From a virus: a stretch of 64,000 nt of DNA. Both the position numbers and the translations under genes were made by a program. Where the stretch lies: the IMG/VR virus record IMGVR_UViG_3300025030_000061, positions 31,052 through 95,051 of that record; one strand, given 5' to 3'. This document shows, in pieces, positions 46,422 through 62,104 of this stretch (position 1 is the first letter of the stretch; every line of letters starts with the position of its first letter). The notes beneath the pieces were generated by a model. That model was given only the letters and a program-made list of their open reading frames with translations. It had not been told where the DNA came from and did no database searches.

Positions 46422-46422
46422 G

Positions 46423-46521
46423 TTATTTACCCTCCTTGGCGGGGCAGTCGTTGCATTCGAGGCCGCAGCCTCCCGAGCACATTCTTCCGTTACCCTTGGG
46501 GCAGATGAAGCAGGTCGCCAT
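46423..46521 (-). CDS. 32-aa six-cysteine peptide
   Basis: MATCFICPKGNGRMCSGGCGLECNDCPAKEGK, GAGGAG RBS, fills the gap exactly. Confidence 0.55.
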   Translation of the reverse strand: MATCFICPKGNGRMCSGGCGLECNDCPAKEGK

Positions 46522-46525
46522 GCTA

Positions 46526-46768
46526 TTACTTCTCCTCCTCGGGTTCTCCCCAAGATTCGCCTGCCTTGTACTCGTCCTCGGTAAAACCGGGGATCCTTTC
46601 TCCGCCGCGCTTGTGGGCCCCGCGCCAGAATCCGGGAGGCGGCAGGTCTCCGTCTGCCAGGTCCCAATCCGTTTCCAGCGTATCCTCGCCCAGCATCCCC
46701 TCTGTGCCGTCTATGACGTCATCCGGGACCGGGTCGCCTTCCTGGTGCTCGAAAAGTGCTTTCGTCAT
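46526..46768 (-). CDS. small acidic protein
   Basis: GAGG RBS, 80 aa, directly downstream of the polyprotein. Confidence 0.6.
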   Translation of the reverse strand: MTKALFEHQEGDPVPDDVIDGTEGMLGEDTLETDWDLADGDLPPPGFWRGAHKRGGERIPGFTEDEYKAGESWGEPEEEK

Positions 46769-46828: not shown

Positions 46829-49800
46829 CTAGTTCACGTAGCGGGCGAAGCGGCGCATAGTGCTGTCGTCGGTAATGTCGAGCGATCCGTACCAGTTGGT
46901 GCCTAGCAGCAGCGCCTTGCCGAGATCGTTGCCGTTGTGCTTCATATCGGCGATCGCCCAGATCGACTCGGGGTTGCTGCTGGTCAGCAGGTCACCGACC
47001 TTGGCAGCCTGGTCCGGTGTGAATTGCCGGAATGTGCTACGGCGGCCTCCGGCTGTCACAGTCTTGTCGCTCGTCTGCATGAAGGAGAGGTTCCGTTGGA
47101 CCTGGTTCTTGATCACCTGCAGGGCGTTGGCGGTCGTCGCCTTGAATCCGAAGCGTGCCCAGGTGTACCCGCCGACATCGATGTTGGCGTGGACGTCGAC
47201 TCGGGTTGCTCCGATCACTTTGTAAACTCCCATCGATGCGCGGAGAAAGGCTTTGCCGCTGTTCCCTCCTGATGTGCCGGCCTGGAAGTAGGAGTGGTCC
47301 ACCACCACCTTTCCGGTGGATTGCTTGGTGAATGTGCGGTCAATCCTGGTCCCGTCGCTGCCTCTCATTTCTACCGCTATCATCCTGTCATCGTAGGACG
47401 ATACGGAGACCCGAAAGCTGGTGGTTCCGCCGTAGTCGGCGAGCATCGTACCGAGCGCGTGCTTCAGCTCGTCTGGGGAGTTGAGCCCCATGACGTTCTG
47501 GGCCTTGGCTCCGATGGCCGGCCAGTCGATGCCCCATCCGCTGATGTTGGCGCCTGGCACGCCGTGTGCCTTGAATCCGCTACGAACGAGCTTGGTCTGT
47601 AGGTTCGTTAGTGCTGCCCGGTTCCTCTCGTTTGCCTCTCTGGCGGCTCTGTCCCTTTCGACCGCTGCCGTGCGTTCTGCTGCCTCGCGCTGGGCTCGGG
47701 CTTCGGGTGTGTCCGGTACCCAGGTCCCGGCCTGGTAGTCCCTGGCGCGGTTCTGCATGGCTGCGTCCTGGGTGATGTACCGGCGTGCCAGGTCCCGCTG
47801 CGCCGTGTCGCGGTAGGGTTGCATGGCTCCGGCTTGCCCGCGGTTGTTCCAGTAGCCATCGGTGCCGGTGTAATAAGTCAGGGGGTAATCCGGCCGTGGC
47901 ACGAATCCGAGCTGGGCTTCGGTCAGGTTGAGCGGGTTCGCGGATCCCGGTACCGGGTTTGTGGGCGGCTGGGCCGCGGCTGGTGCTGAGGGGCGCCGGG
48001 TCCTCGGTGCGGGTGCCGAGCGTGGGGTTGCTGTCTCGCGCTGCACTACTGGGGCCTGCGGCATTGGGGTGCTGTTCGCTTCTCCGCTCTGGCTTGCCGG
48101 CTGCGGTGTGCCGTCGCTGTTGTGGCCGAAGTGGCGCAGCAGCAGGGTGCGGTAGTCGTCGGCCGCTCTGGTGTACCCGTTGCTCCTGGTGGTCTGGATG
48201 GCGAGGATGGCCGCGACCGGGTCCTCCTCCTGGGCGGCTTCGTAAAGGCGATTGATCTTGTTCTGCGCGGAGATCAGCGCCGAGTTCTGCATGTTGCCGG
48301 CGGTGATGGTGGTCGGTGCCGGCGCCGCGGCCAGGGTTTCCTCCGGTGGCGCGATATTCCGTGCTGCGTTGGCTGCGGCCAGCAGCTCCGCCCTGTAATC
48401 ATCGACGGCCGCGTAGTTGGCGCGGGTCCGGCTGGTGCTCAGGTTGGCAATCGCATCGATATTGCCGATGAGGGCGAGTTGGCGGAGGTGGGCGGAGCGC
48501 CTGGCTGTCATTCGGTTGCTCTCGCTGGTGTCGGAGAAGTACGGGACCGCCACCTGGCGCATGGCGTCGATCATTGCCTCCTCGGGGGAGAACGCTCCGG
48601 TTGCAGCGTGCCCGAGCCTGACCGCCTCTGCGGATCCGGCGCGGAACCAGCGGCGGACGGGCTGTCCGTCGGGTCCGGCCGTTGTGCGGAGCACGTATCC
48701 GGGGTGATTGGCAATCGCCGTAGATTTGATCAGCAGGCTCCGGTCGGGGATGGTGCGGATCGACTTAAACATCCGCATCTGGAGCATGCCGGAGCGGTCC
48801 CCTGGCAGGTGTTCAGCCATGGGGGTGGTTTCGCCCTTGGTGCCTTCTTCGCGGCGCTTATGCTGGTCTGCTGCGATATCCTCGGCGTCGAGGACCTTGA
48901 GTCGTGTCGCCTCGTCCAGCTTGCCCCAATGAGGCAGGTGGCCGAATCGCTCCCGCTGGAGGCCGCGGACCTCGTGGCTGTCCTGGGAGAAGGAGAGCTT
49001 CTGGCCGTACTTGCGGACGCGGCTGTCTTCGTGCTCCATGACATGCACCAGGGCGCCGTGGGGCGTTACCCGGTCGTAGGACCGGACGCGGGCCTTGATC
49101 AGTCGGGCATTACCGGCTCTGCTGCCTGCCGTTCCTTCTCGGCCTGCTGCTCCTGCTCCTGGGCGGATGCCTTTTCCTTCAGCTTCTTGGCAGCCTTGGC
49201 CTTCCTGTTCGCTTTTGCGTCCAGCCGGTCGGCTTCCTGCAGCGCCCGCTTGAGCAGGTCCCCTTTCCGCTGGTACAGCTTTTTGTCCTTGTCGTTCTCG
49301 GCCATGCTGACCTCCTTGGTGTTTTAGCAGCAGGTGTGTGAAGGCGCGTGCCTGGAATGATTGCGCCTTGTTGAGATCGGCGCCGCTGTTCGCCTGCTGC
49401 AGGGCCTGCTTAACCACCGTCTCCTTCGATTTGGGCTCTGCCGGTCCCGAGAACATATCGACCTCGGGGTTTTCCCTGCTCGCCACCTCCGTCTTGATGG
49501 CGTGGCTTATCCCCTTAAAGACGTTTTCCAGCCGGCTCCTGGATCCGGTGCGGTCGGCGATTGCCAGGATCATGTCGGTGGCGTAGTCGGTCTTGAAGGT
49601 CGGGGTATCCCCGGTGAAGTTGAGGGAGCCCGCGTTGCGGAGGGTGTGCTCCAGCTCGGCGCGGCTCTGTCCCTGGTGGCTCAACGTGTATTCGATCGCC
49701 TCCATCATGTCGGGGACCACGTCGAGGTCGTCGTGCCCCTTCACCTGGGCGAAGTCTCCGACGCAGGCATTCAGGGCCCGGAGTACATTCCGGATCTTCG

Positions 49801-52800
49801 GCTTCGCGCTCTCGGCTTGCAGCTCGGTCAGTACGCTGCTGCCGTACACCTTGGTGAAGACCGCGTTTTGGATCCGCTCGATCGCCTTCTTGTTCGGATC
49901 GCCGTCGGCGTCCCGGAGGCTGGCCGATTCGTTTTTCCCGAGTTTGTCGAGAAATCCGTTGATAAAGTCCATGTTGTCGTCGCAGTAGATCTCGCCGTCC
50001 TCGTCGGGCTGGAACTTCTTGAGGAGGGTGTCGTCTATCCGCTCGGAGTCGGACCATGCTTGTTCGGCTGGGGAGGAGCCGAGGTTGCTGCTCTGGTTCG
50101 CCTCCCTGGCAAACTCGGCGCGATCGGTGTTTGAATCGTTCTCGTCGCGCAGGCGGACCAGTACCGGCTGCTGCATCCCTTCCACGTCTTCCGGTTTGAG
50201 CCCGAAGTGTTCGGCTTCGCCTTTGAGCCATGTCTTGTACTTGTCGGCCAGGCCGCGCTTATAGGCTTCGGAGAGGGCGATGGTGCGGCCGTTCCCACTC
50301 TCAACCGCGCCATCCTTGCCGACGATCGGGGCGCCGTCTGCGGCATTGGCGGAGTGCCCCAGCTGCTCGGGGCGGATGTCGTTCATGATGTTTGCCATCT
50401 GCATCTGGGACGAGAGGCGTTCGCGCTCCCTGGGCTGGATCTCCTGCGGGTAGGCGCGGTTGATGTGCCCCTGGATGGTGTGGCTTGTGGTCAGGTCGCT
50501 CGCTTCCACCAGGGAGTACTTGCTCTGGACCTTGTTGCCCTTCGCGGTGTAGGCCAGGTTGGCGCGTCCGGTGATGAACTTCGGGTCCTTCTTCCCGGTG
50601 TCGGTTTCCTCGACCTGCCTGCGGCCGGCGATGCTGGTCACCTGCCCCTTCGCTTTATCCGGGTCGACGCCGGCGAAGTGGACCTTGTGCTGGTCCCCTT
50701 CCTTGCCGATCGTCACGGTGTGCCCGTCCTTCTCGAACTTGCTGGCGGTTGCCTCCCGGTCCACCTTGTGCCCGAAGTGGGCCAGCAGCTTCTCGCGCTC
50801 GTCGTCTACCGCTTTGAGGTAGGGGTTCGCCCTCGAGGTGTGGATGGTGGTCAGCGCAGCCACTGGGTCGTCGGAGTTCTTGGCCGCTTCGTGCATCTTG
50901 GTGATGATGCGCTGCGCCGATACCAGAGCGGAGTTCTCCTGGTTGGCTCCCTTGATCTTGCCGGGCTCGGGCATGTCCTCTTTTTTGCCGACCGCTTTCC
51001 TCTCGTCCTTCTTGACCGGGTGCGTCTCCTTCTCCTTCCAGCCGTTCCCGCGCAGGTGCGTCATGAGGTCCTCGCCATGCTTCAGCGTGCTCCCCTGGTG
51101 GACCTGCTCGCCGTGTTTGTTCTCGTGGGCAATCACGTCCTGGTGCTTCCGCACGCGGCGGTCGTTGTGCTCCTGGACGACGGTCCCGTCCTGCCTGGCG
51201 TACTGCTGAATGTGGCTCTTGATAAGGTGGAATCGCTCCATGAGGCCGTCGATTGGGCTGGGCGCGTAGAGGTGGACGCTCTTGTGTAGGCTGTTGACGT
51301 CGACCAGGGCTTTCCCCCAGGAGGTGAAGCGCACGGCGCGGTCGTCGAGGTAGATGTCGGCAATCGGCTTGCCGGGGTTGGCTCCCTCGGGCTGCTCGCT
51401 GTTCGTGTTGATCTCGTCGAACGGGATCCCGTTGTCGGCAAGGTATGCCCGCAGGACAGGGGTGTCGGGGCGGGTGGTGTGGATGATCAGCTTCCAGCCG
51501 GCATCCTTGAGCTCGTGCATCCCCTCCGCGGCGCCGTCCACCGGGGGGCCGAATTTGTCAACGCCGAGGAATCCCTGGGAGTAGTCCGCGAGCGGGCCGT
51601 CGAAGTCTATGCATGCGGTCCGCTGGTGCTCGGCTACGGCTTTACGGAGGTCGCCAAGCTCCTGCATGCTTTTTAGGAGTCCGCGCAGGTCCTGCATGCC
51701 GCGAGTCCTGGCGAGGTTCGCCAGCGCCGAGGTCATCCTGACCTTCACCTGGTCGGCGTCCCATCGCTCCCCCTCGGGCGCCGGCATGTTGGCTCGGTTC
51801 AGCGCCGCGGCGATGTCCTGGTCCTTGTAGGCGTGGTCGAATCGGTCCAGGCCGAACTTCATCTTGATGATGGCTGCCGCGATCGGGTCGTCGAGGGATT
51901 CAAGGTGCGTGACGATCCCCTGCATGAGCTGGGCCTTCTTGGCTGCGTCCGATTCGTGCTCGGGCACGGTGGCGGCCTGGGCTGCGATCCCTCGCATGCC
52001 GCTCTCCTGGTCGTCCTCCATCCCGCCGTCGTAGGAGGTGTGTTCCTGCAGGTGCCTCTGGTGGGCGATGATATGGCGCAGCGCGGCGGTCTTCCCGGCG
52101 CGGGTCATAGACATAAGTATGCGGCTATCGCTTCCCTCTCCGGCCAGCGTGTCGCGCAGGTCGTCCAGGTCCTTCTCCGGGGCTCTGCTCGTCTCGGTGC
52201 GGTACGAGTTCATGGCTGCCGCGATGTACTCGCTGTATAGCTCGTTGGCGTCGTTGTCGTCGTTATGAAGGGCTCCCCCCAGGTCGATGTAGTGGGGGTT
52301 GAATCCGTTGCTGGTCGCCAGGTGGGCGAGGGTGCTTTTCATACGGCTGACGAATACCGGGTGGGTCAGGACCTTCCCTTCGTCGAGCTGTGCCCGCTGC
52401 TGGCCAACCTCGGCGCGGCGCCGGCTCTCCTCGGTGGAGATGGTGCTTCCCCCCCTGGAGGTCGTCTCCCTGGTACCGGTGCGGGCAGTTTCAGCCTTGT
52501 GCTCCTCGTCGGTCCAGACGTTGTCCCGGTCGGTGGTGATCTGCGCCGGGCGGAACGTGTAACCATCCCTTACAGGTTGGATGGTGTAGCCTTCCTCGTG
52601 GCTCCCCGCGACGATCGTGCCCTTTTTCTTCCTGGGCTGGCCGGGTACCTTGTAGTAGACCTTGTGGCCGTGCTGCAGGCGGTCGCCTTCCTTCCCTCTG
52701 ACGGTCACCTTCGCCATGGTCGCGGCCACCTGCACGGTCCCACCGTTGGCGGTATGCCTGGTGGTGCCTTCACGGTGGTGGACCTCCTCGTGGGCAGGGG

Positions 52801-52867
52801 CTCGGTAATCGAATAGGTTGAGCTGCGACTTTAAGAGATGAACGACGTGTTTGATGCCATTTAACAT
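46829..52867 (-). CDS. polyvalent head-cargo polyprotein (sigma-like, HAD, repeat domain, ddrB-ParB, GNAT-like)
   Basis: IIKMKFGL...QDIAAAL (sigma r4), IDFDG...KPIADIYLDDRA (HAD), GAPIV...VESGNGRTIAL (ParB), VHANIDVGGYTWARFGF (GNAT-like). Start at 52867 after GGAGGG. Confidence 0.8.
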   Translation of the reverse strand: MLNGIKHVVHLLKSQLNLFDYRAPAHEEVHHREGTTRHTANGGTVQVAATMAKVTVRGKEGDRLQHGHKVYYKVPGQPRKKKGTIVAGSHEEGYTIQPVRDGYTFRPAQITTDRDNVWTDEEHKAETARTGTRETTSRGGSTISTEESRRRAEVGQQRAQLDEGKVLTHPVFVSRMKSTLAHLATSNGFNPHYIDLGGALHNDDNDANELYSEYIAAAMNSYRTETSRAPEKDLDDLRDTLAGEGSDSRILMSMTRAGKTAALRHIIAHQRHLQEHTSYDGGMEDDQESGMRGIAAQAATVPEHESDAAKKAQLMQGIVTHLESLDDPIAAAIIKMKFGLDRFDHAYKDQDIAAALNRANMPAPEGERWDADQVKVRMTSALANLARTRGMQDLRGLLKSMQELGDLRKAVAEHQRTACIDFDGPLADYSQGFLGVDKFGPPVDGAAEGMHELKDAGWKLIIHTTRPDTPVLRAYLADNGIPFDEINTNSEQPEGANPGKPIADIYLDDRAVRFTSWGKALVDVNSLHKSVHLYAPSPIDGLMERFHLIKSHIQQYARQDGTVVQEHNDRRVRKHQDVIAHENKHGEQVHQGSTLKHGEDLMTHLRGNGWKEKETHPVKKDERKAVGKKEDMPEPGKIKGANQENSALVSAQRIITKMHEAAKNSDDPVAALTTIHTSRANPYLKAVDDEREKLLAHFGHKVDREATASKFEKDGHTVTIGKEGDQHKVHFAGVDPDKAKGQVTSIAGRRQVEETDTGKKDPKFITGRANLAYTAKGNKVQSKYSLVEASDLTTSHTIQGHINRAYPQEIQPRERERLSSQMQMANIMNDIRPEQLGHSANAADGAPIVGKDGAVESGNGRTIALSEAYKRGLADKYKTWLKGEAEHFGLKPEDVEGMQQPVLVRLRDENDSNTDRAEFAREANQSSNLGSSPAEQAWSDSERIDDTLLKKFQPDEDGEIYCDDNMDFINGFLDKLGKNESASLRDADGDPNKKAIERIQNAVFTKVYGSSVLTELQAESAKPKIRNVLRALNACVGDFAQVKGHDDLDVVPDMMEAIEYTLSHQGQSRAELEHTLRNAGSLNFTGDTPTFKTDYATDMILAIADRTGSRSRLENVFKGISHAIKTEVASRENPEVDMFSGPAEPKSKETVVKQALQQANSGADLNKAQSFQARAFTHLLLKHQGGQHGRERQGQKAVPAERGPAQAGAAGSRPAGRKSEQEGQGCQEAEGKGIRPGAGAAGREGTAGSRAGNARLIKARVRSYDRVTPHGALVHVMEHEDSRVRKYGQKLSFSQDSHEVRGLQRERFGHLPHWGKLDEATRLKVLDAEDIAADQHKRREEGTKGETTPMAEHLPGDRSGMLQMRMFKSIRTIPDRSLLIKSTAIANHPGYVLRTTAGPDGQPVRRWFRAGSAEAVRLGHAATGAFSPEEAMIDAMRQVAVPYFSDTSESNRMTARRSAHLRQLALIGNIDAIANLSTSRTRANYAAVDDYRAELLAAANAARNIAPPEETLAAAPAPTTITAGNMQNSALISAQNKINRLYEAAQEEDPVAAILAIQTTRSNGYTRAADDYRTLLLRHFGHNSDGTPQPASQSGEANSTPMPQAPVVQRETATPRSAPAPRTRRPSAPAAAQPPTNPVPGSANPLNLTEAQLGFVPRPDYPLTYYTGTDGYWNNRGQAGAMQPYRDTAQRDLARRYITQDAAMQNRARDYQAGTWVPDTPEARAQREAAERTAAVERDRAAREANERNRAALTNLQTKLVRSGFKAHGVPGANISGWGIDWPAIGAKAQNVMGLNSPDELKHALGTMLADYGGTTSFRVSVSSYDDRMIAVEMRGSDGTRIDRTFTKQSTGKVVVDHSYFQAGTSGGNSGKAFLRASMGVYKVIGATRVDVHANIDVGGYTWARFGFKATTANALQVIKNQVQRNLSFMQTSDKTVTAGGRRSTFRQFTPDQAAKVGDLLTSSNPESIWAIADMKHNGNDLGKALLLGTNWYGSLDITDDSTMRRFARYVN
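49099..49305 (-). CDS. nested 68-aa charged helical protein in an alternative frame of the polyprotein
   Basis: AAGGAGG 5 nt before ATG. The polyprotein frame reads as a low-complexity linker here. Confidence 0.55.
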   Translation of the reverse strand: MAENDKDKKLYQRKGDLLKRALQEADRLDAKANRKAKAAKKLKEKASAQEQEQQAEKERQAAEPVMPD

Positions 52868-52898
52868 GCTTCCCTCCGGCGGGTGCTTTGTGCCTGTC

Positions 52899-52938
52899 AT
52901 CCTAAGTCATCACGTAGCGCATATCAAACATTTTGCCC
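52899..52938 (-). promoter_or_regulatory. class B promoter TTGATA-N17-TAGGAT for the polyprotein
   Basis: gggcaaaatgt TTGATA tgcgctacgtgatgact TAGGAT. Confidence 0.72.
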
Positions 52939-52945
52939 ATTCATA

Positions 52946-52966
52946 TCATTCTGTATCTGCGTCTTT
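52946..52966 (+). promoter_or_regulatory. class A motif (partial), divergent from the polyprotein promoter
   Basis: TCATTC tgtatctg CGTCTTT. Confidence 0.5.
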
Positions 52967-53007
52967 ACTCCTCCAAGCGGTACATCTTCTCCCTTGGAGG
53001 CTCCACC

Positions 53008-53349
53008 ATGAAAAAATCGGCTCTGGTTCCCGTCAAATCTCTTTTCTTGGACATCGCTGCTGGCAGCCAGTCGGTCAACTTCGTGGAGCTGCTCTCCGGC
53101 TGGGGGCAGCGCCTGCGGATCTCCATCAAGTCTGATTCCTATCTCGTCCAGTCCTATGCTCGCATTGAGGTCTGGTCCGCGGCGGAGCTGAAATGGAACC
53201 TGGTGGCCTACGTGCAGCACGGCAGCATGCTGACGCCGGCCGGGCTGATCTACAATCCGAATCGCTCGGGCTTCCAGGCCTCCCACTTCCAGGCCGATCG
53301 CACCGAGCTGATCCGTCTTGCCGGTCTTGTGCTGGGTCCGGTCGCCTAA
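53008..53349 (+). CDS. hypothetical phage protein
   Basis: GGAGG RBS. RLRISIKSDSYLVQSYARIEVW...LKWN. Confidence 0.7.
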   Translation: MKKSALVPVKSLFLDIAAGSQSVNFVELLSGWGQRLRISIKSDSYLVQSYARIEVWSAAELKWNLVAYVQHGSMLTPAGLIYNPNRSGFQASHFQADRTELIRLAGLVLGPVA

Positions 53350-53354
53350 CCGTA

Positions 53355-53375
53355 TCATTCCATACAACGGTCTTT
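53355..53375 (+). promoter_or_regulatory. class A motif (partial)
   Basis: TCATTC catacaac GGTCTTT. Confidence 0.55.
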
Positions 53376-53419
53376 CTCTACCCATAGCGGCATACAAAAA
53401 ATTTCTCTGGAGGCTTACC

Positions 53420-53872
53420 ATGCTGATCACCGAAACCCATAAAAACTTCCCCTGCGGTTCCAAAGGTCGTCTCACCGTCAAGTCCGATGCCGGCGAAGTC
53501 CTGGCCGTGATCATGACGCCGGTCCAGAAGGCTCGGAAATACTGCGAGGCCAATCCCGAGACGCCGCAGGGTGTCGAATTCGCCAGGGTAATGGTCGTTG
53601 GACAACACTCGGAACTGCAGGATGCCGTGGACGCTCTGGTTCCGGTCCCCGCTCCTCCGGTCCTGGCCGGCGCCAATCCGGAAAACACGGCGCTCGTCTC
53701 CGCGCAGCGCAAACTGGTGAAGCTTCACGAGGCGGCGCAGGGCGACGATCCGGTCCTGGCGCTTGCGGCGATCAAGACCTCCCGCGGCAATAAATACCTC
53801 AATACCTGCGACGACTACCGCGTCGCGCTCCTGGCTCACTTTGCCCAGGCCGGCATCGACGCAGCGGGGTAG
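53420..53872 (+). CDS. stand-alone protein carrying the polyprotein repeat domain
   Basis: GANPENTALVSAQRKL...DDYRVALLAHF aligns by eye with two polyprotein segments. GGAGG RBS. Confidence 0.75.
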   Translation: MLITETHKNFPCGSKGRLTVKSDAGEVLAVIMTPVQKARKYCEANPETPQGVEFARVMVVGQHSELQDAVDALVPVPAPPVLAGANPENTALVSAQRKLVKLHEAAQGDDPVLALAAIKTSRGNKYLNTCDDYRVALLAHFAQAGIDAAG

Positions 53873-53876
53873 GGTC

Positions 53877-54089
53877 ATGTTCGTCCGATATTCTGGCCGC
53901 TCCTGGCGCTCGTCTGGTTCTCACGACGCACAGGGGCGGCTTCTTCTTTCTCCGCTGATCGGTCCCGGTCCTGGGATCGCTGCCGATCCTGACGAGGTTG
54001 AGCTCTGCTCCCCGCGGGAGGTGGCTGCAGCGCGCCGTCTCCTGGCCAAGCGCATATCATTCTGCGGGCCGGGCTTAGGTCTGGTGTAG
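53877..54089 (+). CDS. small hypothetical protein
   Basis: MFVRYSGRSW..., weak RBS. The 3' end overlaps a class A motif. Confidence 0.4.
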   Translation: MFVRYSGRSWRSSGSHDAQGRLLLSPLIGPGPGIAADPDEVELCSPREVAAARRLLAKRISFCGPGLGLV

Positions 54090-54090
54090 G
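54057..54090 (+). promoter_or_regulatory. class A repeated motif
   Basis: TCATTC tgcgggcc GGGCTTA ggtct GGTGTAGG, preceded by a partial operator GCGCATA. Confidence 0.68.
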
Positions 54091-54113
54091 TCATTACGGT
54101 TCTGGAGGATGTC

Positions 54114-54518
54114 ATGAGAAAACAGTTCAAGTTTGAGGGCCGGGTCGGTTGCATCGATGATTCTGGTTTCATCGCCTGGGGCGGCATTGGGTGCTCCATC
54201 GGTTCCGCTGGTCCCGATCTGCGTGACGCGATTCTCCAGCAGACCAAAACCTCCGCCCTTTTGCTCGAGGACGTCATGCCTCTCTCCCGCGAAGATTCGG
54301 TTTACCTTCGCTCCATCTCGGAACTCGTTTCCCGGCATTGGACCGAATCGCTTGACGCATTCTTCGCCAGGCTGCAGGGCATCCTCCCGCTCCCGGAAGG
54401 TTTCAAGATCGGTAAGGGGGGGCATCACATCTGGATCGCCAAGTCGGTACCTAAAACCGAGGCAGATACCTCTGGCTGGCATCGGCTCTGCTGCATCACT
54501 GAGCGGGGTGCCAAATGA
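54114..54518 (+). CDS. hypothetical protein
   Basis: GGAGG RBS. IGKGGHHIWI. Confidence 0.65.
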   Translation: MRKQFKFEGRVGCIDDSGFIAWGGIGCSIGSAGPDLRDAILQQTKTSALLLEDVMPLSREDSVYLRSISELVSRHWTESLDAFFARLQGILPLPEGFKIGKGGHHIWIAKSVPKTEADTSGWHRLCCITERGAK

Positions 54519-54757
54519 TAGATTACAGCAACGTGGTAGAGCCGATGCGGTGTGAGGCTCGGGGCGGTCGTCGCCTTGGGCGCTTCCTCCTGGCGCTGGT
54601 GGTCCTGGGGTCGTCCTTGTGCTGGTGCATCGCCGGGGGGACCGACCGCCGGCCGGTCGAGGTCAAGAAGCCGGCGCCGGTCGAGTTCTCGGCCGCGCAG
54701 ATCAATACGATGCGGGCGAATGGTCGCCTGCTCAGTCAGAGGGGGTTGCTGCCTTAA
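54515..54757 (+). CDS. small single-TM membrane protein
   Basis: RFLLALVVLGSSLCWCIA, ATGA coupling. Confidence 0.55.
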   Translation: MIDYSNVVEPMRCEARGGRRLGRFLLALVVLGSSLCWCIAGGTDRRPVEVKKPAPVEFSAAQINTMRANGRLLSQRGLLP

Positions 54758-54830
54758 GGATTCATTTGCGGGGAGGGTAGACAGGATTACAAATTACTGA
54801 TATTGTTGCGGCATATTCCCTGGAGGGTCT

Positions 54831-55214
54831 ATGCCGCTTTTTTGTGCCCACTGTTCGACTCCTGCTGACGACGATGCTCCCTGGTGCGAGTGCTGCGGAA
54901 GTGACCTAGTGCCCGCTACCCTGGGTGTGGTCGCTGCCCTGGCTCCGATCCGCCGGCATGACGTAGTCGTCGATCGTCTCCGGGTGAACTGCGTGGCCTA
55001 CGGCGAGCGCCTCCGTCACGATCCCCTCACCGAGACGATGTCCTCGGTCTTCTCCTGCGGTCGCAATCCGGAGAGGATCGATTGCGTCGGTTGTCGGGTC
55101 TGCACCACCTGCGGAGACCTGCGCTGTACCTGCGGGCTTCTCTCCATCTCGATCGGGGTAAAAACAAAGGGCACCGTCATTGATACGGTGCCCCTACGTC
55201 CTCGCCTGGTCTAA
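54831..55214 (+). CDS. Cys-rich Zn-binding protein
   Basis: CAHC, CECC, CVGCRVCTTC, CTC. GGAGG RBS. Confidence 0.6.
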   Translation: MPLFCAHCSTPADDDAPWCECCGSDLVPATLGVVAALAPIRRHDVVVDRLRVNCVAYGERLRHDPLTETMSSVFSCGRNPERIDCVGCRVCTTCGDLRCTCGLLSISIGVKTKGTVIDTVPLRPRLV

Positions 55215-55227
55215 TCATTCCTTCGCT

Positions 55228-56454
55228 TTAACTCTTTTTCTTCGCCCAGGGCTCGTGCCCGGTGTATGGGTATGGTCCCAGACAAGCGCACCAGGGGTGC
55301 ATGAGCCCGGCGACCGCCTTCATGGTGGATGCTCCGTCGTCTCTCCCTCCCAGAGCCACCTTGCCGCCTCGGATCGGGTGCGGCTTCCTGCCGATGTTCG
55401 TTGCGTTTCGGATCAGCGTAGAGAGCTTGAAGACCCTGGGGGTCTTGCCGTCGGGCAGGAGGTATGCGTACTTGCATTGGGCGCAGGCGGTCCCCAGGGG
55501 CATCTTGTAGACCGGCTTATCCACGTCTCCGTCGGCCATGAGGGCGTGCGCCATTCCCTGCTTCTGGGCGTCGGTGATCTCGTAGTATGCGACTCGGTCC
55601 CAATCCCTGGCCTTATCTTCCATGGTGCGGTGCAGCTCGCTGGCGAACTGCTGCCACGTCTCCACAGGCCGGGCCGGCGTGGGGATCCCCAGCGCTGCCT
55701 TGCGCTCCTGGTCGAGCACCGTCCTGGTGAGCGTCCTGGCGTGGAAGTCGATCGCCATCTCCCGGACCGTCTCGGCCTGCTGCTTCGCCCAGGCTTCCCC
55801 CACTCGGGTGGCGAGGTCAGCGGCGTTATTCGTGATGTAGTTGGCGGTCTGCTGCTCCGCGATGGCGATTGCGTGCAGGTCCGGCGCCAGGATGTGAGCG
55901 TACCGGGCCATATCCATGACATCGGCGAAGCTCTTGCCGCTCTCCACGACCTGGATCATCTTGCCCATGAGGAAGGCGCTGCGGATGAAGTGCAGGTCTG
56001 CCGGCACGCCAAGGGCGAACGTCTCGGGGGTTATGTCCTGGGAGACGAGGCCCAGGCGCTTCCAGCGCTCCAGCAGGTCCTCGGGGGGCTGGTACCCTTC
56101 GGATTGGAGCTGGGCCGCAATGAATCCGTAGCGGTCGTTAATGGCGAGCTGCAGGCGCCGCAGTTGCTCGGTGGTCAGCGGTTCCCTGGCGGCGCTGGCC
56201 TTGGCGATCGCGCTGGTGGCGATCTCCTGGTGGTAACGCTCTATGTCCGTCTGGGCTGCCTGGAACTCGGCCAACATCCGGTGGTAGAGTTCCTTTGTGG
56301 CGCGGGTGCGGGGGACCTTCGGACGGTTGTCGCATCCTACCGCCTTCTGCAGTTCCTCGATCACGTCGTCCTGGATCCCGCTCGCCGCAGCCATCCCGGT
56401 GATGGCCTTGCAGAGTTCTTCCCCGGTGAGGTTATGCTCGACCTTGAGCTCCAT
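55228..56454 (-). CDS. MuF/gp7-like minor head protein
   Basis: RDWDRVAYYE...ACAQC...HPWCAC. Also LCKA, LQKA and IAKA motifs. Confidence 0.78.
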   Translation of the reverse strand: MELKVEHNLTGEELCKAITGMAAASGIQDDVIEELQKAVGCDNRPKVPRTRATKELYHRMLAEFQAAQTDIERYHQEIATSAIAKASAAREPLTTEQLRRLQLAINDRYGFIAAQLQSEGYQPPEDLLERWKRLGLVSQDITPETFALGVPADLHFIRSAFLMGKMIQVVESGKSFADVMDMARYAHILAPDLHAIAIAEQQTANYITNNAADLATRVGEAWAKQQAETVREMAIDFHARTLTRTVLDQERKAALGIPTPARPVETWQQFASELHRTMEDKARDWDRVAYYEITDAQKQGMAHALMADGDVDKPVYKMPLGTACAQCKYAYLLPDGKTPRVFKLSTLIRNATNIGRKPHPIRGGKVALGGRDDGASTMKAVAGLMHPWCACLGPYPYTGHEPWAKKKS

Positions 56455-58010
56455 TATTTCAGCAGCTCGTCAGCCGCGGTCTGTACTTCGGAGACCGCCT
56501 TCTTCAGATCGTCCTTGTCGCCGCCAGGCTCCTCTCCGCCGGGTTTGTGCTCGGCAGCCTCCTGCTGGGCGGTTTCGCCGGCTTCGTGCGCAGCATCCTC
56601 GTGTTTTTTCCCCTCAAGGAGATGCGTGTGGAGGGCTCCGAAGTGCTTAGCATTGCCGTCCTCCCCTTTATGGCTGTTCCATGCTGCCTGGTGGGCTTCT
56701 GCTGCCTTTTTGTGGGCGGATGCGGCCGTCTGGTGGTCTTCGGCCGTGCCCGTCTTCCTGGCGGTCCTGCTGGCCTTGTTTGCTTCTTTGGTGAGCGCGT
56801 GGGCCTGCCGGCTATCCTCGTGCTCCTTGACGGCCGTGCCATCCTGCTTCGTGTAGCCGGTGACGTGGCTTTTCAGCAGTTCGGCTGCCATGGCGCCGAG
56901 TGCGACCGCTTTACTGAGGTCTTTGTGCATGGTGGGGCTCCCTTGATCAAGGTATCTGGAATAAACTTCTGAAAGATCTAGTTCCTGCTTCAGCACGGTG
57001 GCGACCTTCTCGTGCCTGTTGTTGCCGGCGACGTCATGGCCGTAGAGCTTCGAGCGCAGGATGTTACCGTCTGCTGATATGTCTGGGATGTGGCCGGAGG
57101 CATTGACCGCCTCGATCCTGGGCGCCAGGGTGACCTCCGCGACCGCTCCCAGGAAGTGTACTCGCGGTGGTTTGATCTCCCGGAGAAACTCTATCAATTC
57201 CTGGTTCGAGACGGCCTCCTCCTGGGATGGGATACCTACCACGAAGCGGTCGACGCCGATAATGCCGACTATCTCCCGGTAAGCGTCTGCCAGCGTCTTT
57301 GCTCCTACCTGCAGGGGCACGATGCAATTCGGGTTGAACTGGATCTGGCCGCTGATCCAGTCCCGGTGTTTCCGGTAAAGGTCCGCAGTCCCCTCCTGGT
57401 CCCCGATGATGTCCGGCATGACGAAGTACGGCGGGGTGATGGGCTCCTCGGCAGGGTTCGCTTCCTCGATGGCGTCCATCACGGCGTCGTATTTAGCCAG
57501 GACCTTCTCGAAGTCCATGGTCTTCCACTCTGGCGCCTCGTTGGCTCCCATGAGGGATAGCTGCTGTGCGGTCTGGTGGCTCTTGAGGTTCTTTCTGAAC
57601 AGCGAGAAGGCGCCGGAGTCGATGAAGACCCTAGCTCGGTGGTTCACGATTCCATTTGCTAATGCCTTCATCGCGGGCGCGGTCAGGAGGCCTATGTCGA
57701 TGCCTAATCCCACCTTACCGCTGTCTGCCAGGACGCTGGTCCCCGCCTTCAGTTCGGTGATGCTGGTCATCCCCGATGAAAACCTGGTGATTGATGCGAG
57801 GTTCACCTTCGGTGCGGTCACCTGCTGGGCCGACCGTACAATGTGAGTGCCTCTCGCCTGGATGTGGCTCACCGTCCCCGCGGCGTTACGACGTTCGTAT
57901 GCGGTGTGGTGAGGGTCATGGCTCGCCGAAAAGTCGAAGCCCTGTTGGCTTTTACGGAGGCTGCTGCTTGCGGTCGTGCAGTCTGTTATGGCGTTGGCGA
58001 GTTCGTTCAT
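56454..58010 (-). CDS. head cargo protein with TGT/DpdA-like (queuine tRNA-ribosyltransferase fold) domain
   Basis: FIDSGAFS, MPDIIGD, VPLQ, VGIP, VHFLG, ISADG. Tagged termini (LRKSQ, LLKSH). Confidence 0.65.
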   Translation of the reverse strand: MNELANAITDCTTASSSLRKSQQGFDFSASHDPHHTAYERRNAAGTVSHIQARGTHIVRSAQQVTAPKVNLASITRFSSGMTSITELKAGTSVLADSGKVGLGIDIGLLTAPAMKALANGIVNHRARVFIDSGAFSLFRKNLKSHQTAQQLSLMGANEAPEWKTMDFEKVLAKYDAVMDAIEEANPAEEPITPPYFVMPDIIGDQEGTADLYRKHRDWISGQIQFNPNCIVPLQVGAKTLADAYREIVGIIGVDRFVVGIPSQEEAVSNQELIEFLREIKPPRVHFLGAVAEVTLAPRIEAVNASGHIPDISADGNILRSKLYGHDVAGNNRHEKVATVLKQELDLSEVYSRYLDQGSPTMHKDLSKAVALGAMAAELLKSHVTGYTKQDGTAVKEHEDSRQAHALTKEANKASRTARKTGTAEDHQTAASAHKKAAEAHQAAWNSHKGEDGNAKHFGALHTHLLEGKKHEDAAHEAGETAQQEAAEHKPGGEEPGGDKDDLKKAVSEVQTAADELLK

Positions 58011-60358
58011 TTTGTCTCTGAGACATCCTCGCCCATGTCCTTTAGCCGCTCGACGATCGCTTTGGCGTGCCCTGCGCTGGGGTATTGGTGCAGTTCGTGG
58101 ATCATCTGTTCCACCTCGGCACGGTGCTGCTGCATCTGCGGGTGAGCGAGGAGCCCGGTGGCTGCCGCGTCGACCTGGGTGATGAGGTGCGCGATCTCGG
58201 GGGCTACCGAAACTACAGCGCCTTGGTGTTTGGGGTACGGGTTGTCTATTGGGCTGCCATCAGATTTCGTGTCTCCACTCCAACCATGGTGCCATGCCAT
58301 GTTCTCGAATGTTTCATCCGTGTATGGGTTAGCTCTCTCTGACTTACCTGCCGATTTGGCGGCTTTACCTTCTTCATATTTTTGATGCCTTGTATCGGGC
58401 CTACCGTGGAGCAGCGGTGCCGCATCTTCGCCCTGGATGGTGATCTCCTGTTTTTTGCCGCTGCTCCAGACCAGTTCGGTCTTGTCGCCGGCCTTGAGGT
58501 CGCCGAGGAAGTCTTCGGTGTAGGCCTCCCGCGACTCGATGATCTTCTTGATGTCGGCGGTGGTCATGCTGTTCGGCGCGGGGTAGGTGGGGCGCTGCGG
58601 GATCCTGTACCCGGCGTCCACTTTTGCCTCCTGGACGGCAACCGGCTGTTCATCCTCGGCTGCTGCTTTCCTTCGGGCGATCTCGTTGCCGACCTGGGCA
58701 AGCATAGCGTTGTCCCCGCTGTTAGCGAGTCCAGTCACCAGTTGGTGCAGTCCTTCGTCGGGGACCAGGTGGAGGTTGGCAATCGGGCCTCCCGCTGGCG
58801 CCGTGCCGCTTCCTTCTAGCTCGCTGATGTGCCGGTTCAGCATCCCTCCGACCTCGTCCGCTCCCCGCTTTCCGAGGCGCTCGTGGCCCTGGTACTTGAG
58901 GATGTTCTTCGCCGTCTGCAGGTACTTCTCCGGGGTGCTGTAGTCGGGATGGTCGGTGCTGATGCCGAGCCCTCCGCGGCCTCGCTTGTCGTGCTTCTCG
59001 AAGGCGTCGTGCAGTTCCTTCACCATTGCATGGTGGTCCTGGGGTTGGGTCGGGGCTCCCTTCGCCTGGATCTGGCTAGTGGTGCCTCTCGCATTGGTAC
59101 GGGTGTACGCTGCGTGATGCGGGTTCGAAGTCGCGGTTGCCGGGGCTGCGAAGTCAAAGCCCATCTGCGACTTTCTGAGGAGGTCCGGTCCCGTCTGTGC
59201 CGCGTCCTCGATGGCCTTCAAGAGTTCTTCTATCTTGTTCATGGTGATGTCCTCCTGTCGACTATAAGGCGACGGCGCAGAATGATAGATCGCTTTTTTA
59301 AACTTGCCGGGTCTATAGCTTGGGTTCTTCCCAGCCTCTTTGTCTCTGTGATATCGTTTTAGTGCAAGTTCATTTTCTCTTTGGCGTCGGTCCTCGCTTT
59401 TATACTTTTGAAGCCCGCTATACTTAAAGTTTTTTACCGCACTGCTGCCACCTACATCTTCTTCTGAAACTATTTTAAATGTCCATCCTCTTGCATGGCA
59501 GTACTCCGTTGCTGCTTGCCATTTTGTTTGGTTTATTGCGTAGTCGTGTTCGCATTTCCATTTAACTTCTTCGATTTCTTTACGTCCATCGTTGTATTCC
59601 ACTAAAAAGTCGGGAAGGTATCTGCGGTCCCCATATTTTATTATGGGCACATTTTTGGTCCAGGTCTTGACTGTACCGTCCGCGTCCAGCTGCTGCATGC
59701 GGAGAATTTCTGTTATTGATCCTGCATGTTCCCACAGGCCTGTTTTGGTTGATTGCCACCAGCCTTTAATGCCGCGTGGGGTATAGTTCTTTTTTGCCTT
59801 GATCGCAGACGCTTCGCTCTGTGTTCTGAGCGCGCCTGCCTTTTTTACCTGGCCAGCCACCGAACCTGTACTGGTATTCAAACGCTTACCGATCTCGGTT
59901 GGAGACATTTGATCTTCTGTATAAAGCCTCACCATTTCATTCTGCAAATCTAGTGGGATCTTCATGGAACGTATGAGTCCTTCATTCCGCATCCATCGAA
60001 TTACCGTGGTCTGCGGAATGCCCATTTCATCCGCTATTTGCTTTGTAGATTTTCCCTCTTTGTAGCGCTGTGCAACTTCTTCTTTATCGCCTCGTTCTCT
60101 TAAAGGGACATTGTATCTTGTCAGGATGCTTCTTACTCCATTTGCGGAGCAGGAATGTTTCTCCGCTATTTGTGGTAATGTCAATTTGCTGTTTTTATAC
60201 TGTTGGATAATCGAGTTGGTAGTTTCTTCGCTCAGATAGTGTTTATTTGCAGGGTTCTCCCTTCCGCGTGAGTCTTCGTGTGCGGTTACTATATTCCCGT
60301 TCTTTTTTGTGTATGCCTTGATATGGCTCTTGAGCAAATGCACCAGATTACTCCCCAA
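58007..60358 (-). CDS. head cargo fusion: HTH repeats, TnsA-like endonuclease and C-terminal modules (internal start at 59242)
   Basis: Three HTHs, RYLPDFLVEY...EEVK...KWQAATEYC, internal AGGAGG-ATG MNKIEELLKA, RMF-like YEEG...NPY...WHHGW. Confidence 0.72.
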   Translation of the reverse strand: MGSNLVHLLKSHIKAYTKKNGNIVTAHEDSRGRENPANKHYLSEETTNSIIQQYKNSKLTLPQIAEKHSCSANGVRSILTRYNVPLRERGDKEEVAQRYKEGKSTKQIADEMGIPQTTVIRWMRNEGLIRSMKIPLDLQNEMVRLYTEDQMSPTEIGKRLNTSTGSVAGQVKKAGALRTQSEASAIKAKKNYTPRGIKGWWQSTKTGLWEHAGSITEILRMQQLDADGTVKTWTKNVPIIKYGDRRYLPDFLVEYNDGRKEIEEVKWKCEHDYAINQTKWQAATEYCHARGWTFKIVSEEDVGGSSAVKNFKYSGLQKYKSEDRRQRENELALKRYHRDKEAGKNPSYRPGKFKKAIYHSAPSPYSRQEDITMNKIEELLKAIEDAAQTGPDLLRKSQMGFDFAAPATATSNPHHAAYTRTNARGTTSQIQAKGAPTQPQDHHAMVKELHDAFEKHDKRGRGGLGISTDHPDYSTPEKYLQTAKNILKYQGHERLGKRGADEVGGMLNRHISELEGSGTAPAGGPIANLHLVPDEGLHQLVTGLANSGDNAMLAQVGNEIARRKAAAEDEQPVAVQEAKVDAGYRIPQRPTYPAPNSMTTADIKKIIESREAYTEDFLGDLKAGDKTELVWSSGKKQEITIQGEDAAPLLHGRPDTRHQKYEEGKAAKSAGKSERANPYTDETFENMAWHHGWSGDTKSDGSPIDNPYPKHQGAVVSVAPEIAHLITQVDAAATGLLAHPQMQQHRAEVEQMIHELHQYPSAGHAKAIVERLKDMGEDVSETK

Positions 60359-62033: not shown

Positions 62034-62040
62034 TATTGGT

Positions 62041-62104
62041 CCCTCCAATCGGGCAATTGGAGGGAGTATGAACGATTGTGTAGCGCATATCAATTATTTT
62101 GCCC
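62041..62104 (-). promoter_or_regulatory. class B promoter TTGATA-N17-CATACT plus RBS-occluding hairpin
   Basis: ggcaaaataa TTGATA tgcgctacacaatcgtt CATACT, then CCCTCCAAT-tgcccg-ATTGGAGGG. Confidence 0.72.

What the first reader, a model, noticed from the sequence alone, without database searches (positions are those of the whole stretch)
49020..60340. Seven copies of a short His/Arg beta-hairpin tag placed immediately after the cleavage motifs
Seen, type 1: LLKSHIKAYTKKNGNIVTAHEDSR (~60335), LLKSHVTGYTKQDGTAVKEHEDSR (~56880), LIKSHIQQYARQDGTVVQEHNDRR (~51225), LIKARVRSYDRVTPHGALVHVMEHEDSR (~49100). Type 2: LRKSQMGFDF...PHHAAYTRTNARGTTSQIQAKG (~59180), LRKSQQGFDF...PHHTAYERRNAAGTVSHIQARG (~57960), LLKSQLNLFD...HHREGTTRHTANGGTVQV (~52835). 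They occur in three otherwise unrelated ORFs, including the AT-rich nuclease module that looks recently acquired. Inference: a portable packaging/ejection tag. After cleavage it would be the N-terminus of each effector and could bind DNA, portal or MuF, analogous in role to the T4 capsid-targeting sequence.
Basis: partly seen in the sequence, partly recalled or inferred. Interest (0 to 1): 0.82.

Follow-up and report, generated by a model that had tools for sequence, protein, structure and literature searches.

The report
Cut-site-plus-hairpin tag on phage cargo
A 95-kb uncultured phage puts the same short peptide, a probable head-protease cutting site fused to a small beta-hairpin, in front of unrelated enzymes encoded among its head genes; the peptide recurs in about a thousand metagenomic protein clusters and probably labels proteins that are packed into the capsid, cut apart and injected, but no cutting or packing has been shown.

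Summary
All seven copies lie at the stated places in three minus-strand ORFs between the portal and the head protease. I found an eighth, degenerate copy (48626-48745) and a decayed one (46356-46430).

Type 1 is hydrophobic-x-K-[S/A]-H-[V/I]..[Y/H].[R/K], a turn with G, ..V..H-[E/D]-D-x-R. Type 2 is the same cut motif, then a Q[L/M]x[L/F](x)F peptide, a spacer and the same hairpin. AlphaFold2 predicts the same beta-hairpin for both types.

The tag is not specific to this phage. A profile of 36 copies finds 995 protein clusters, many with 2-5 copies. These tags head InPase, ART, SAM-lyase, Zeta-toxin, topoisomerase IB, PBECR, ParB and other 'polyvalent protein' modules. Wherever neighbours could be identified they were portal, MuF, protease or capsid genes. 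No Pfam, PHROG or PDB entry covers the tag.

The tag is portable, specific to head cargo and fused to the cut site, but its partner and the stage at which it acts are unknown. That suggests part of the tag works in the host after injection.

This scan had already noted similar cut-site-plus-hairpin tags in at least 17 other genomes.

The parts
60266..60337 (-). Type-1 tag (LLKSHIKAYTKKNGNIVTAHEDSR) at the N-terminus of the 783-aa ORF. It heads the AT-rich HTH plus TnsA-like nuclease module.
   Evidence: 75.6 bits; GC 0.44, like the module
59057..59182 (-). Type-2 tag inside the 783-aa ORF: LLRK|S-QMGFDF, a spacer, then the hairpin HHAAYTRTNARGTTSQIQAKG. It follows an internal Met and an LLKAIED leader, which is the start of the older cargo gene.
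57849..57962 (-). Type-2 tag at the N-terminus of the 518-aa ORF: SLRK|S-QQGFDF...HHTAYERRNAAGTVSHIQARG.
56808..56879 (-). Type-1 tag (LLKSHVTGYTKQDGTAVKEHEDSR) inside the 518-aa ORF, between its enzyme domain and its C-terminal helical part.
   Evidence: (74.5 bits)
52712..52840 (-). Type-2 tag at the N-terminus of the 2023-aa polyvalent protein: HLLK|S-QLNLF-DY...HHREGTTRHTANGGTVQV. QLNLF fits the clamp-binding consensus QLxLF exactly.
51155..51226 (-). Type-1 tag (LIKSHIQQYARQDGTVVQEHNDRR) inside the 2023-aa protein, after the HAD-like module and before the helical and ddrB-ParB modules.
   Evidence: 77 bits
49019..49102 (-). Type-1 tag, long-loop variant with a VRKYGQKL extension (LIKARVRSYDRVTPHGALVHVMEHEDSR), inside the 2023-aa protein.
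   Evidence: 66.3 bits; the same variant heads PBECR, LPD3 and MuF_C proteins elsewhere
48626..48745 (-). Eighth copy, degenerate and type-2-like (LLIK|STAIANHPGYVLRTTAGPDGQPVRRWFRAG). It is the positional homologue of ILRK|SQHSDHAAYTRTTASGATANVAQKG in relative L015.
46356..46430 (-). Decayed tag (RLLK|SHALRAETPKD...) at the start of the InPase/DUF5661 protein. Relatives carry an intact tag at this position.
   Evidence: 9.4 bits; L010: MLLKSKVKGYTRKNGTRV in front of InPase
43852..44835 (-). Head maturation protease (phrog_1028), the presumed enzyme that cuts at hydrophobic-x-K|S/A.
   Evidence: E 1.7e-41; homologues are present in all sufficiently complete tag-bearing contigs
55228..56454 (-). 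MuF-like 408-aa head protein without a tag. In relatives L023/L028 and in P0139/P0208 its C-terminus is fused to a tag plus cargo.
60348..62093 (-). Portal protein, the upstream border of the cargo block. It has hydrophobic-x-K-S motifs near both ends.

Best explanation
The seven peptides are copies of a composite, portable cassette. The cassette marks and separates proteins carried inside the phage head.

Anatomy:
- A cut site for the phage's own head-maturation protease: hydrophobic at P3, Lys at P1, Ser or Ala at P1'.
- In type 1, this runs without any spacer into a hairpin of about 20 residues that ends in H-[E/D]-D-x-R.
- In type 2, it is followed by a Q[L/M]x[L/F](x)F peptide, a variable spacer and the same hairpin ending in AKG.

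Proposed mechanism (inferred, not shown):
1. Cargo proteins and polyproteins encoded between the portal and the protease are built into the prohead.
2. The hairpin is the only element shared by otherwise unrelated cargo. It is therefore the likely docking element, binding the protease, the scaffold, the shell or MuF.
3. The protease then cuts just before each cassette, so giant polyvalent proteins are split into single modules.
4. Each module keeps the hairpin at its new N-terminus and leaves the head with the DNA.
5. In type-2 cassettes the newly exposed QLxLF-like peptide would then dock the delivered enzyme on the host's sliding clamp.
For: What is shown:
- The tag is conserved and specific. 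It occurs in 995 cluster representatives at E<=1e-3, many with 2-5 copies.
- The cut motif is part of the tag. P3 is hydrophobic in 96% of copies, and P1' is S or A wherever K[SA]x[VILF] could be anchored, which was 94% of 402 copies. Most remaining copies have K-G, K-T or a 1-3 residue shift.
- The same hydrophobic-x-K-[S/A] motif without a hairpin is concentrated in scaffold, protease, capsid N-terminus and portal ends. There are 41 sites in the head block against 9.8+-3.0 in shuffles. The density is 8.7 per 1000 aa there against 1.1 elsewhere in the genome.
- The motif holds the same positions in relatives and in the cultured phages Mecenats66 and Dolphis.
- Tags precede domain-sized units. 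The median gap between tags is 227 aa, and there are never fewer than 36 aa after the last tag.
- Cargo domains are the phage 'polyvalent protein' repertoire. P1 DdrB, the founder of the ddrB-ParB domain, is a head protein by LC-MS/MS (PMC9024508).
- The context is portal, MuF, protease or capsid in every locus with identifiable neighbours. Natural MuF-tag-cargo fusions exist.
- 67 of 254 N-terminal leaders are 8 residues or fewer (MYLLK|, MILLRRIVK|). A removed leader therefore cannot be the common address.
- AlphaFold2 predicts the same hairpin for both types.
- Strict Q[LM]xLF occurs 30 times in the tagged proteins against 1.0+-1.0 in shuffles, and 23 of these directly follow K[SAGT]. The consensus QLxLF is taken from PMC4549789. 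The phage has no clamp gene of its own.
- The tag of the AT-rich module has that module's base composition.
Against: - There is no experimental evidence here or in the papers searched that any of these sites is cut or that the proteins are in virions.
- Plain K|S/A sites without a hairpin exist, so the hairpin is not needed for cutting. One predicted product of the 2023-aa protein, the HAD-like module (about aa 421-561), would carry no tag after cleavage.
- A tag that stays on the mature protein differs from every proven phage capsid-targeting signal. This fits a post-injection role at least as well.
- The binding partner is unknown.
- The two QxGFDF heads in this window fit the clamp motif only as a loose hexapeptide variant.
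- Many of the metagenomic contigs are fragments, so the context count is incomplete.
Confidence: 0.55

Rival explanations
1. The hairpin works mainly after injection. It would be a common localisation module that holds each delivered enzyme on DNA or on a host factor, together with the clamp-binding-like peptide in type 2. Loading into the head would then depend on something else, such as being part of a polyprotein, a MuF fusion or the leader.
For: - The tag lies downstream of the cut and would be kept on the mature protein.
- Type 2 couples it to a QLxLF-like peptide.
- The tag core is on average basic (+2.3, against +0.55 for background 25-aa windows) and the next 12 residues are also basic.
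- Several tagged cargoes act on DNA, such as ParB, topoisomerase IB, nuclease and DarB-like methylase/helicase proteins.
Against: - 27% of tags are neutral or acidic, including one in this window.
- The zero-spacer fusion to the cut site in type 1 is not explained.
- Small single-domain cargoes with 5-8-residue leaders have no other shared feature that could address them to the head.
Confidence: 0.25
2. The hairpin is a substrate-presentation or exosite element for the head protease. It would hold the scissile bond as the edge strand of a small sheet, so that module junctions are cut efficiently and only there. It would have no addressing role.
For: - The cut motif and the first strand are continuous in 94% of type-1 copies.
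- Conserved residues lie on both faces of the predicted hairpin, which suggests a bound state.
- All sufficiently complete tag-bearing contigs carry the same protease family.
Against: - Scaffold, capsid, portal and protease carry the same motif without any hairpin.
- In type 2 the hairpin is 8-22 residues from the cut.
- One protein begins directly with M-SHVKGY, with no upstream site at all.
Confidence: 0.12
3. The peptide is a passive joint, either a folding cap or linker, or a recombination scar that spreads with module shuffling. It would have no binding function.
For: It sits at module boundaries and is flanked by low-complexity linkers.
Against: - About ten positions are strongly conserved across phages whose portals share only 22-25% identity.
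- Synonymous sites have diverged within the genome, which indicates selection on the protein and rules out DNA-level homology as the cause.
Confidence: 0.05

Closest known systems
Phage-type polyvalent proteins (Iyer, Burroughs, Anand, de Souza, Aravind 2017, J Bacteriol; PMC5512222)
   Same: The proteins are giant or modular, combine unrelated enzymatic domains (ddrB-ParB, InPase, DUF5661, ART-PolyVal, PBECR, LPD, MuF_C), are encoded next to head genes, and are proposed to be injected with the DNA.
   Different: That paper proposes processing mainly by zincin-like metallopeptidase domains within the proteins. A text search of it found no mention of a junction hairpin or of K|S/A sites. Here no such peptidase domain was found, and the junctions carry the motif of the separate head protease.
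T4 capsid-targeting sequence of internal proteins (Mullaney and Black 1996, as cited in PMC9024508)
   Same: It is a short portable peptide next to a prohead-protease site on proteins that are packed in the head and injected.
   Different: The T4 signal is upstream of the cut and is removed, the T4 site is not after Lys, and there is no sequence likeness. Here the conserved element is downstream, is retained, and is repeated inside polyproteins.
Phage P1 Dar system: the N-terminal 30-residue packaging signal of DarB, and DarA/Hdf bound to the inner capsid surface (PMC9024508, PMC12810830)
   Same: It involves head-internal anti-restriction cargo, including a ddrB-ParB protein. An N-terminal signal is sufficient for packaging, and cargo docks on the inner shell and leaves with the DNA.
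   Different: Neither tag profile gives a hit above 3 bits in P1 DarB, DdrB, DarA, Hdf, DdrA or Ulx. P1 loading is hierarchical through DarA/Hdf, which have no counterpart identified here.
Bacterial beta-sliding-clamp-binding motif QLxLF (PMC4549789; PMC12309361)
   Same: Type-2 heads read QLNLF, QLSLF, QMSLF, QLGLF, QLDLF or QMSLL, and lie in a segment of low predicted order near a (new) terminus.
   Different: Binding was not tested. Two of the three copies in this window have the looser Q[MQ]GFDF form. The motif has not been described directly after a protease site on virion cargo.
MuF-fused polymorphic toxins and encapsulin cargo-loading peptides (from my own knowledge, not checked here)
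   Same: Cargo is addressed to an HK97-fold shell by a fused MuF domain or by a short peptide. MuF-tag-cargo fusions exist among relatives.
   Different: There is no sequence relation. Most tagged cargo here is not fused to MuF, and encapsulin peptides are not coupled to a protease site.

Membership tests
Phage-type polyvalent proteins (Iyer et al. 2017) | Several domains of disparate activity in one polypeptide, including signature families such as ddrB-ParB and InPase | tested here: met
   The 2023-aa ORF has ddrB-ParB (E 2e-36) and a HAD-like module. The 400-aa ORF has InPase plus DUF5661. The 783-aa ORF has HTH plus a TnsA-like nuclease.
Phage-type polyvalent proteins (Iyer et al. 2017) | Encoded in the virion/head gene neighbourhood of a phage | tested here: met
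   All lie between the portal (60348-62093) and the protease (43852-44835).
Phage-type polyvalent proteins (Iyer et al. 2017) | Packaged in the virion and delivered with the DNA | not testable with these tools
   There is only indirect support. PHROG annotations of InPase families read 'minor head protein' or 'virion structural protein', and P1 DdrB is found in heads.
T4-type capsid-targeting sequence | The signal lies N-terminal of the protease site and is removed on maturation | tested here: not met
   The conserved element lies C-terminal of the K|S/A site. Leaders are often only 4-8 residues long.
T4-type capsid-targeting sequence | The signal is sufficient to direct a foreign protein into the head | not testable with these tools
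   This needs tag-reporter fusions in a tag-bearing phage.
Substrate site of the head-maturation protease (phrog_1028 type) | A recurrent short motif concentrated in scaffold, the capsid N-terminus and other head proteins, and conserved in position among relatives | tested here: met
   41 sites against 9.8+-3.0 in shuffles, and 8.7 against 1.1 per 1000 aa. The same positions are used in relatives and in Mecenats66 and Dolphis.
Substrate site of the head-maturation protease (phrog_1028 type) | Demonstrated cleavage at the motif | not testable with these tools
   No proteomic or N-terminal data were found for this clade.
Beta-clamp-binding motif | Sequence fits Q-L-x-L-F or the hexapeptide variant | tested here: met
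   QLNLF occurs in the 2023-aa protein. The family-wide forms are QMSLF, QLSLF, QLGLF, QLDLF and QMSLL, with a 30-fold excess over shuffles. The two Q[MQ]GFDF copies are only loose fits.
Beta-clamp-binding motif | Binds the hydrophobic cleft of DnaN | not testable with these tools
   This needs peptide binding or two-hybrid tests with the host clamp. The phage itself encodes no clamp.
Any catalogued protein family or solved structure | The tag is covered by a Pfam, PHROG or PDB entry | tested here: not met
   No Pfam or PHROG model matches the tag peptides even at E up to 10 and 1 respectively. The best PDB match has E 0.75 over 14 residues.

The most novel reading that the evidence does not exclude
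The cassette is a two-stage address code that can be read from sequence alone. Before maturation the hairpin would load any protein fused behind it into the prohead. The protease would then free each module with the hairpin, and in type 2 a clamp-docking peptide, at its new N-terminus. After injection this directs the enzyme to DNA or to the host replication clamp. If true, it would be a new class of retained, cleavage-activated cargo signal. It would also be a direct way to list the injected effectors of uncultured phages.
Probability: 0.3. Interest if true: 0.8.

Novelty: new variant of a known kind. Interest (0 to 1): 0.62.

Why it matters
Proteins that phages inject with their DNA act first against host defences, but they are hard to recognise from sequence. 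A short conserved label that heads such proteins would allow two things:
- Injected effectors could be listed in metagenomes. The tagged set already includes SAM lyases, ADP-ribosyltransferases, Zeta-toxin-like kinases, nucleases, topoisomerase IB and a (p)ppGpp enzyme.
- There would be a handle for loading foreign proteins into capsids.

The tag also offers a concrete answer to how giant polyvalent proteins are taken apart: by the ordinary head protease at marked junctions, not by built-in peptidases. The clamp-motif match suggests delivered enzymes are steered to the host replication machinery, which can be tested directly with peptides.

Tried and rejected
- **tblastn against GenBank phages.** Two 42-aa tags against 50,697 records gave no match. 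This is a weak test, because a 60%-identical 26-residue match cannot reach E 10 in that search space. A profile scan of fetched regions then found divergent tags in Bordetella phage PHB04.
- **The search for related loci with the first alignment.** I replaced it with a fixed-gap degenerate DNA pattern.
- **The look-up of encoding contigs.** The genomic context of the metagenomic protein hits therefore rests on IMG/VR and GTDB loci only.
- **Self-cleavage through the Ser after Lys.** Rejected, because Ala (37%), Gly and Thr occupy that position.
- **DNA repeat or recombination hotspot.** Rejected, because synonymous sites have diverged.
- **Removed N-terminal leader as the address.** Rejected as a general rule, because 67 of 254 leaders are 8 residues or fewer. 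A helical L-x-K-A-I-x-E leader with a second cut motif does exist in many proteins, however.
- **Homology to the P1 DarB packaging signal.** None found.
- **Link to conjugative elements.** No relaxase, ArdC or primase domains were found among 81 scanned tagged proteins.
- **Literature on cleavage specificity or proteomics in this phage clade.** Searches found nothing usable.
Full report
**Setting.** The window is bases 31052-95051 of a single 95,051-bp virus record that CheckV rates complete. The head genes lie on the minus strand:
- portal, 60348-62093
- a 783-aa ORF, 58007-60358
- a 518-aa ORF, 56454-58010
- a MuF-like 408-aa ORF, 55228-56454
- a short plus-strand island
- a 2023-aa polyvalent protein, 46829-52900, with ddrB-ParB
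- an InPase/DUF5661 protein, 45465-46667
- the head maturation protease, 43852-44835 (phrog_1028)
- a scaffold-like protein and the major capsid protein

No GenBank phage is close. The best portal matches are 24-30% identical: Pseudomonas phages Dolphis and Jeremy, Morganella phage Mecenats66, Bordetella phage PHB04 and SPO1-like phages.

**The observation.** All seven peptides are present as quoted.
- A type-1 HMM run over six frames of the whole genome scores the four copies at 66-77 bits. Nothing else exceeds 9.4 bits.
- Type 2 aligns with type 1 once an insert after the K-S is opened.
- AlphaFold2 on alignments gives the same strand pattern for both types, with pLDDT of about 89-91 in the hairpin and about 60 in the flanks.
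- The copies are kept at the protein level only. Third positions of identical codons agree in 27-64% of cases.
- The tag on the AT-rich nuclease module has that module's composition: GC 0.44, against 0.62-0.68 for the others. It therefore probably arrived with the module.
- I add a degenerate eighth copy at 48626-48745 and a decayed copy at the start of the InPase protein.

**The cut motif.** Hydrophobic-x-K-[S/A] occurs 41 times in the head-block proteins, against 9.8+-3.0 in shuffles. The density is 8.7 per 1000 residues there and 1.1 in the rest of the genome.
- It is repeated in the scaffold-like protein. It also occurs near the N-termini of the protease and the capsid protein, and near both ends of the portal.
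- The same positions carry it in nine relatives and in the cultured phages Mecenats66 and Dolphis.
- That this is the head protease's site is an inference. No N-terminal or proteomic data for this clade were found.

**Distribution.** Nine IMG/VR relatives with 64-72% portal identity carry both tag types at the starts of the ORFs after the portal.
- A profile of nine tags found 96 proteins in a word-indexed search.
- A profile of 36 tags, read against 1.84 billion cluster representatives, found 995 at E<=1e-3 and 210 at E<=1e-10, many with 2-5 copies.
- A 14-sequence type-2 profile found 52 proteins.
- In 220 hit proteins there are 402 type-1 tags. 94% have K-[S/A]-x-[V/I/L/F]. Where that anchor exists, P3 is hydrophobic in 96%, His follows at +2 in 71%, Y or H at +6 in 90%, and R or K at +8 in 90%.
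- Most of the rest have K-G, K-T or a small shift.
- There are two discrete lengths, 21 and 25 residues.
- Tags precede domain-sized units: the median spacing is 227 aa, and there are never fewer than 36 aa after the last tag.

**What the tag carries.** Pfam domains behind the tags include InPase, ART-PolyVal, SAM lyase, Zeta toxin, AAA_33, LPD1, LPD3, RadC, topoisomerase IB, ParB, ddrB-ParB, PBECR2/3, GNAT, MuF_C, DUF6900 and DUF6496. This is the phage side of the 'polyvalent protein' repertoire (PMC5512222). No markers of conjugative elements appeared.
- A text search of that paper for 'hairpin', 'prohead', 'cleav' and 'processing' found no description of such a junction peptide. The paper attributes processing mainly to built-in metallopeptidases.
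- No Pfam, PHROG or PDB entry covers the tag.

**Genomic context.** A degenerate DNA pattern for the long-loop tag hit 20 IMG/VR stretches, where fewer than one was expected by chance.
- Wherever neighbours could be recognised they were portal, MuF, protease, scaffold or capsid homologues, or cargo homologues. This includes phages with only 22-24% portal identity: L017, L021 and L025.
- Two relatives fuse MuF directly to a tag and cargo.
- Contigs complete enough to judge all carry a phrog_1028-type protease.
- Only three of 185,579 species genomes matched, all MAGs. One of them has portal and MuF next to the tagged gene. The carriers are therefore mainly uncultured phages.
- Bordetella phage PHB04, which is cultured, has divergent tags on a (p)ppGpp-enzyme-like protein and on its DarB-like 2097-aa protein.
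- P1 Dar proteins have no tag.

**The clamp-motif lead.** Earlier notes of this scan on other genomes mentioned a sliding-clamp-like peptide in such tags. I tested this here.
- Type-2 heads read K|S-QMSLF, QLSLF, QLGLF, QLDLF, QLNLF or QMSLL, or Q-M-x-[L/F]-D-F.
- Strict Q[LM]xLF occurs 30 times in 263 tagged proteins, against 1.0+-1.0 in shuffles. 23 of these directly follow K[SAGT]. Where the peptide is shifted by one or two residues (KSEQLSLFG, KAEQLSLFG), QLSLF is kept.
- QLxLF is the published clamp-binding consensus (PMC4549789).
- The phage has no clamp gene of its own.
- In this window QLNLF is an exact fit. QMGFDF and QQGFDF are loose fits. Binding is untested.

**Reading.** What is shown is this: a conserved, uncatalogued, portable cassette is specific to head-block cargo proteins and is physically fused to the motif that behaves like the head protease's site.

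The following steps are inferred:
- The sites are cut.
- The hairpin is the address for loading. The argument is one of elimination: it is the only shared element, and many leaders are too short to serve.
- The QLxLF peptide docks on the host clamp after delivery.

The main rival is that the hairpin itself works after injection. Its retention on the product and its mildly basic charge favour that reading. The 27% of neutral or acidic tags and the spacer-free fusion to the cut site speak against it. A pure protease-exosite role is weakened by the many plain sites that lack a hairpin.

**Novelty.** The kind of element is known: phage internal-protein signals next to protease sites, and polyvalent proteins. 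This family, its position after the cut, its repetition inside polyproteins and its coupling to a clamp-motif-like peptide were not found described. The same scan has independently noted comparable cut-site-plus-hairpin tags, with different sequences, in at least 17 other genomes. The phenomenon therefore appears general among uncultured phages, and this window is one more family of it.

Noticed in passing
window 52933-55214 (+ strand), especially 53318-53872: A plus-strand island interrupts the minus-strand head block. Its 184-aa ORF ends with the same ~60-aa helical domain (..NTALVSAQRKLVKLHEAAQGDDPVLALAAIKTSRGNKYL..) that is repeated inside the 2023-aa polyvalent protein on the other strand.
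   Followed up: no
window 43852-44835 and 41622-43064: The C-terminal part of the protease (..LQKALGTDTGIPMANGNAPTMRENLD..) mirrors the capsid protein just after its second K|A motif (..LRKALQTNSGVAMANGNGPLMLENLD..).
   Followed up: no
window 60348-62093; L002-L009; L038-L040: The portal carries a hydrophobic-x-K-[S/A] motif about 45-55 residues from its N-terminus and another about 10-20 residues from its C-terminus. Both are conserved in relatives and in PHB04, Mecenats66 and Dolphis. This suggests the portal is trimmed at both ends.
   Followed up: partly
window 56454-56520: The 518-aa ORF ends ..DLKKAVSEVQTAADELLK-stop. That is a leader-like L-x-K-A..(11 aa)..LLK with the stop codon exactly where a cut would fall, directly before the MuF-like gene.
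   Followed up: no
window 59200-60700: The AT-rich stretch (GC 0.38-0.50) covers the nuclease module and also roughly the last 100-130 codons of the portal gene. An internal Met plus an LLKAIED leader at about 59242 marks the start of the older cargo gene, now read through in frame.
   Followed up: partly
L039 15082-19197 (Morganella phage Mecenats66 ORF61): The 1371-aa 'helicase' starts MKRLMIK|ASIPAGAKWITVHPNGSDSKGQPVLVQ. This is a cut motif followed by a different strand-turn-strand peptide, possibly another family of the same kind of tag.
   Followed up: no
P0170, P0148, P0157, P0215 (metagenomic hits): QL[SD]LF peptides also occur away from cut sites in Pro/Gly-rich linkers of tagged proteins. 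One comes directly after a type-1 tag (..YDDKRKPKQLDLFSPD..).
   Followed up: partly
window 46829-52900, aa ~421-561 of the 2023-aa protein: The HAD-like phosphatase module is bracketed by LLKS/LRKA and LIKS motifs but has no hairpin of its own. It would be the only untagged product of the polyprotein.
   Followed up: no
window 56900-57800: The enzyme domain of the 518-aa ORF has no Pfam or PHROG hit. A first-reader note calls it TGT/DpdA-like. I did not test this.
   Followed up: no
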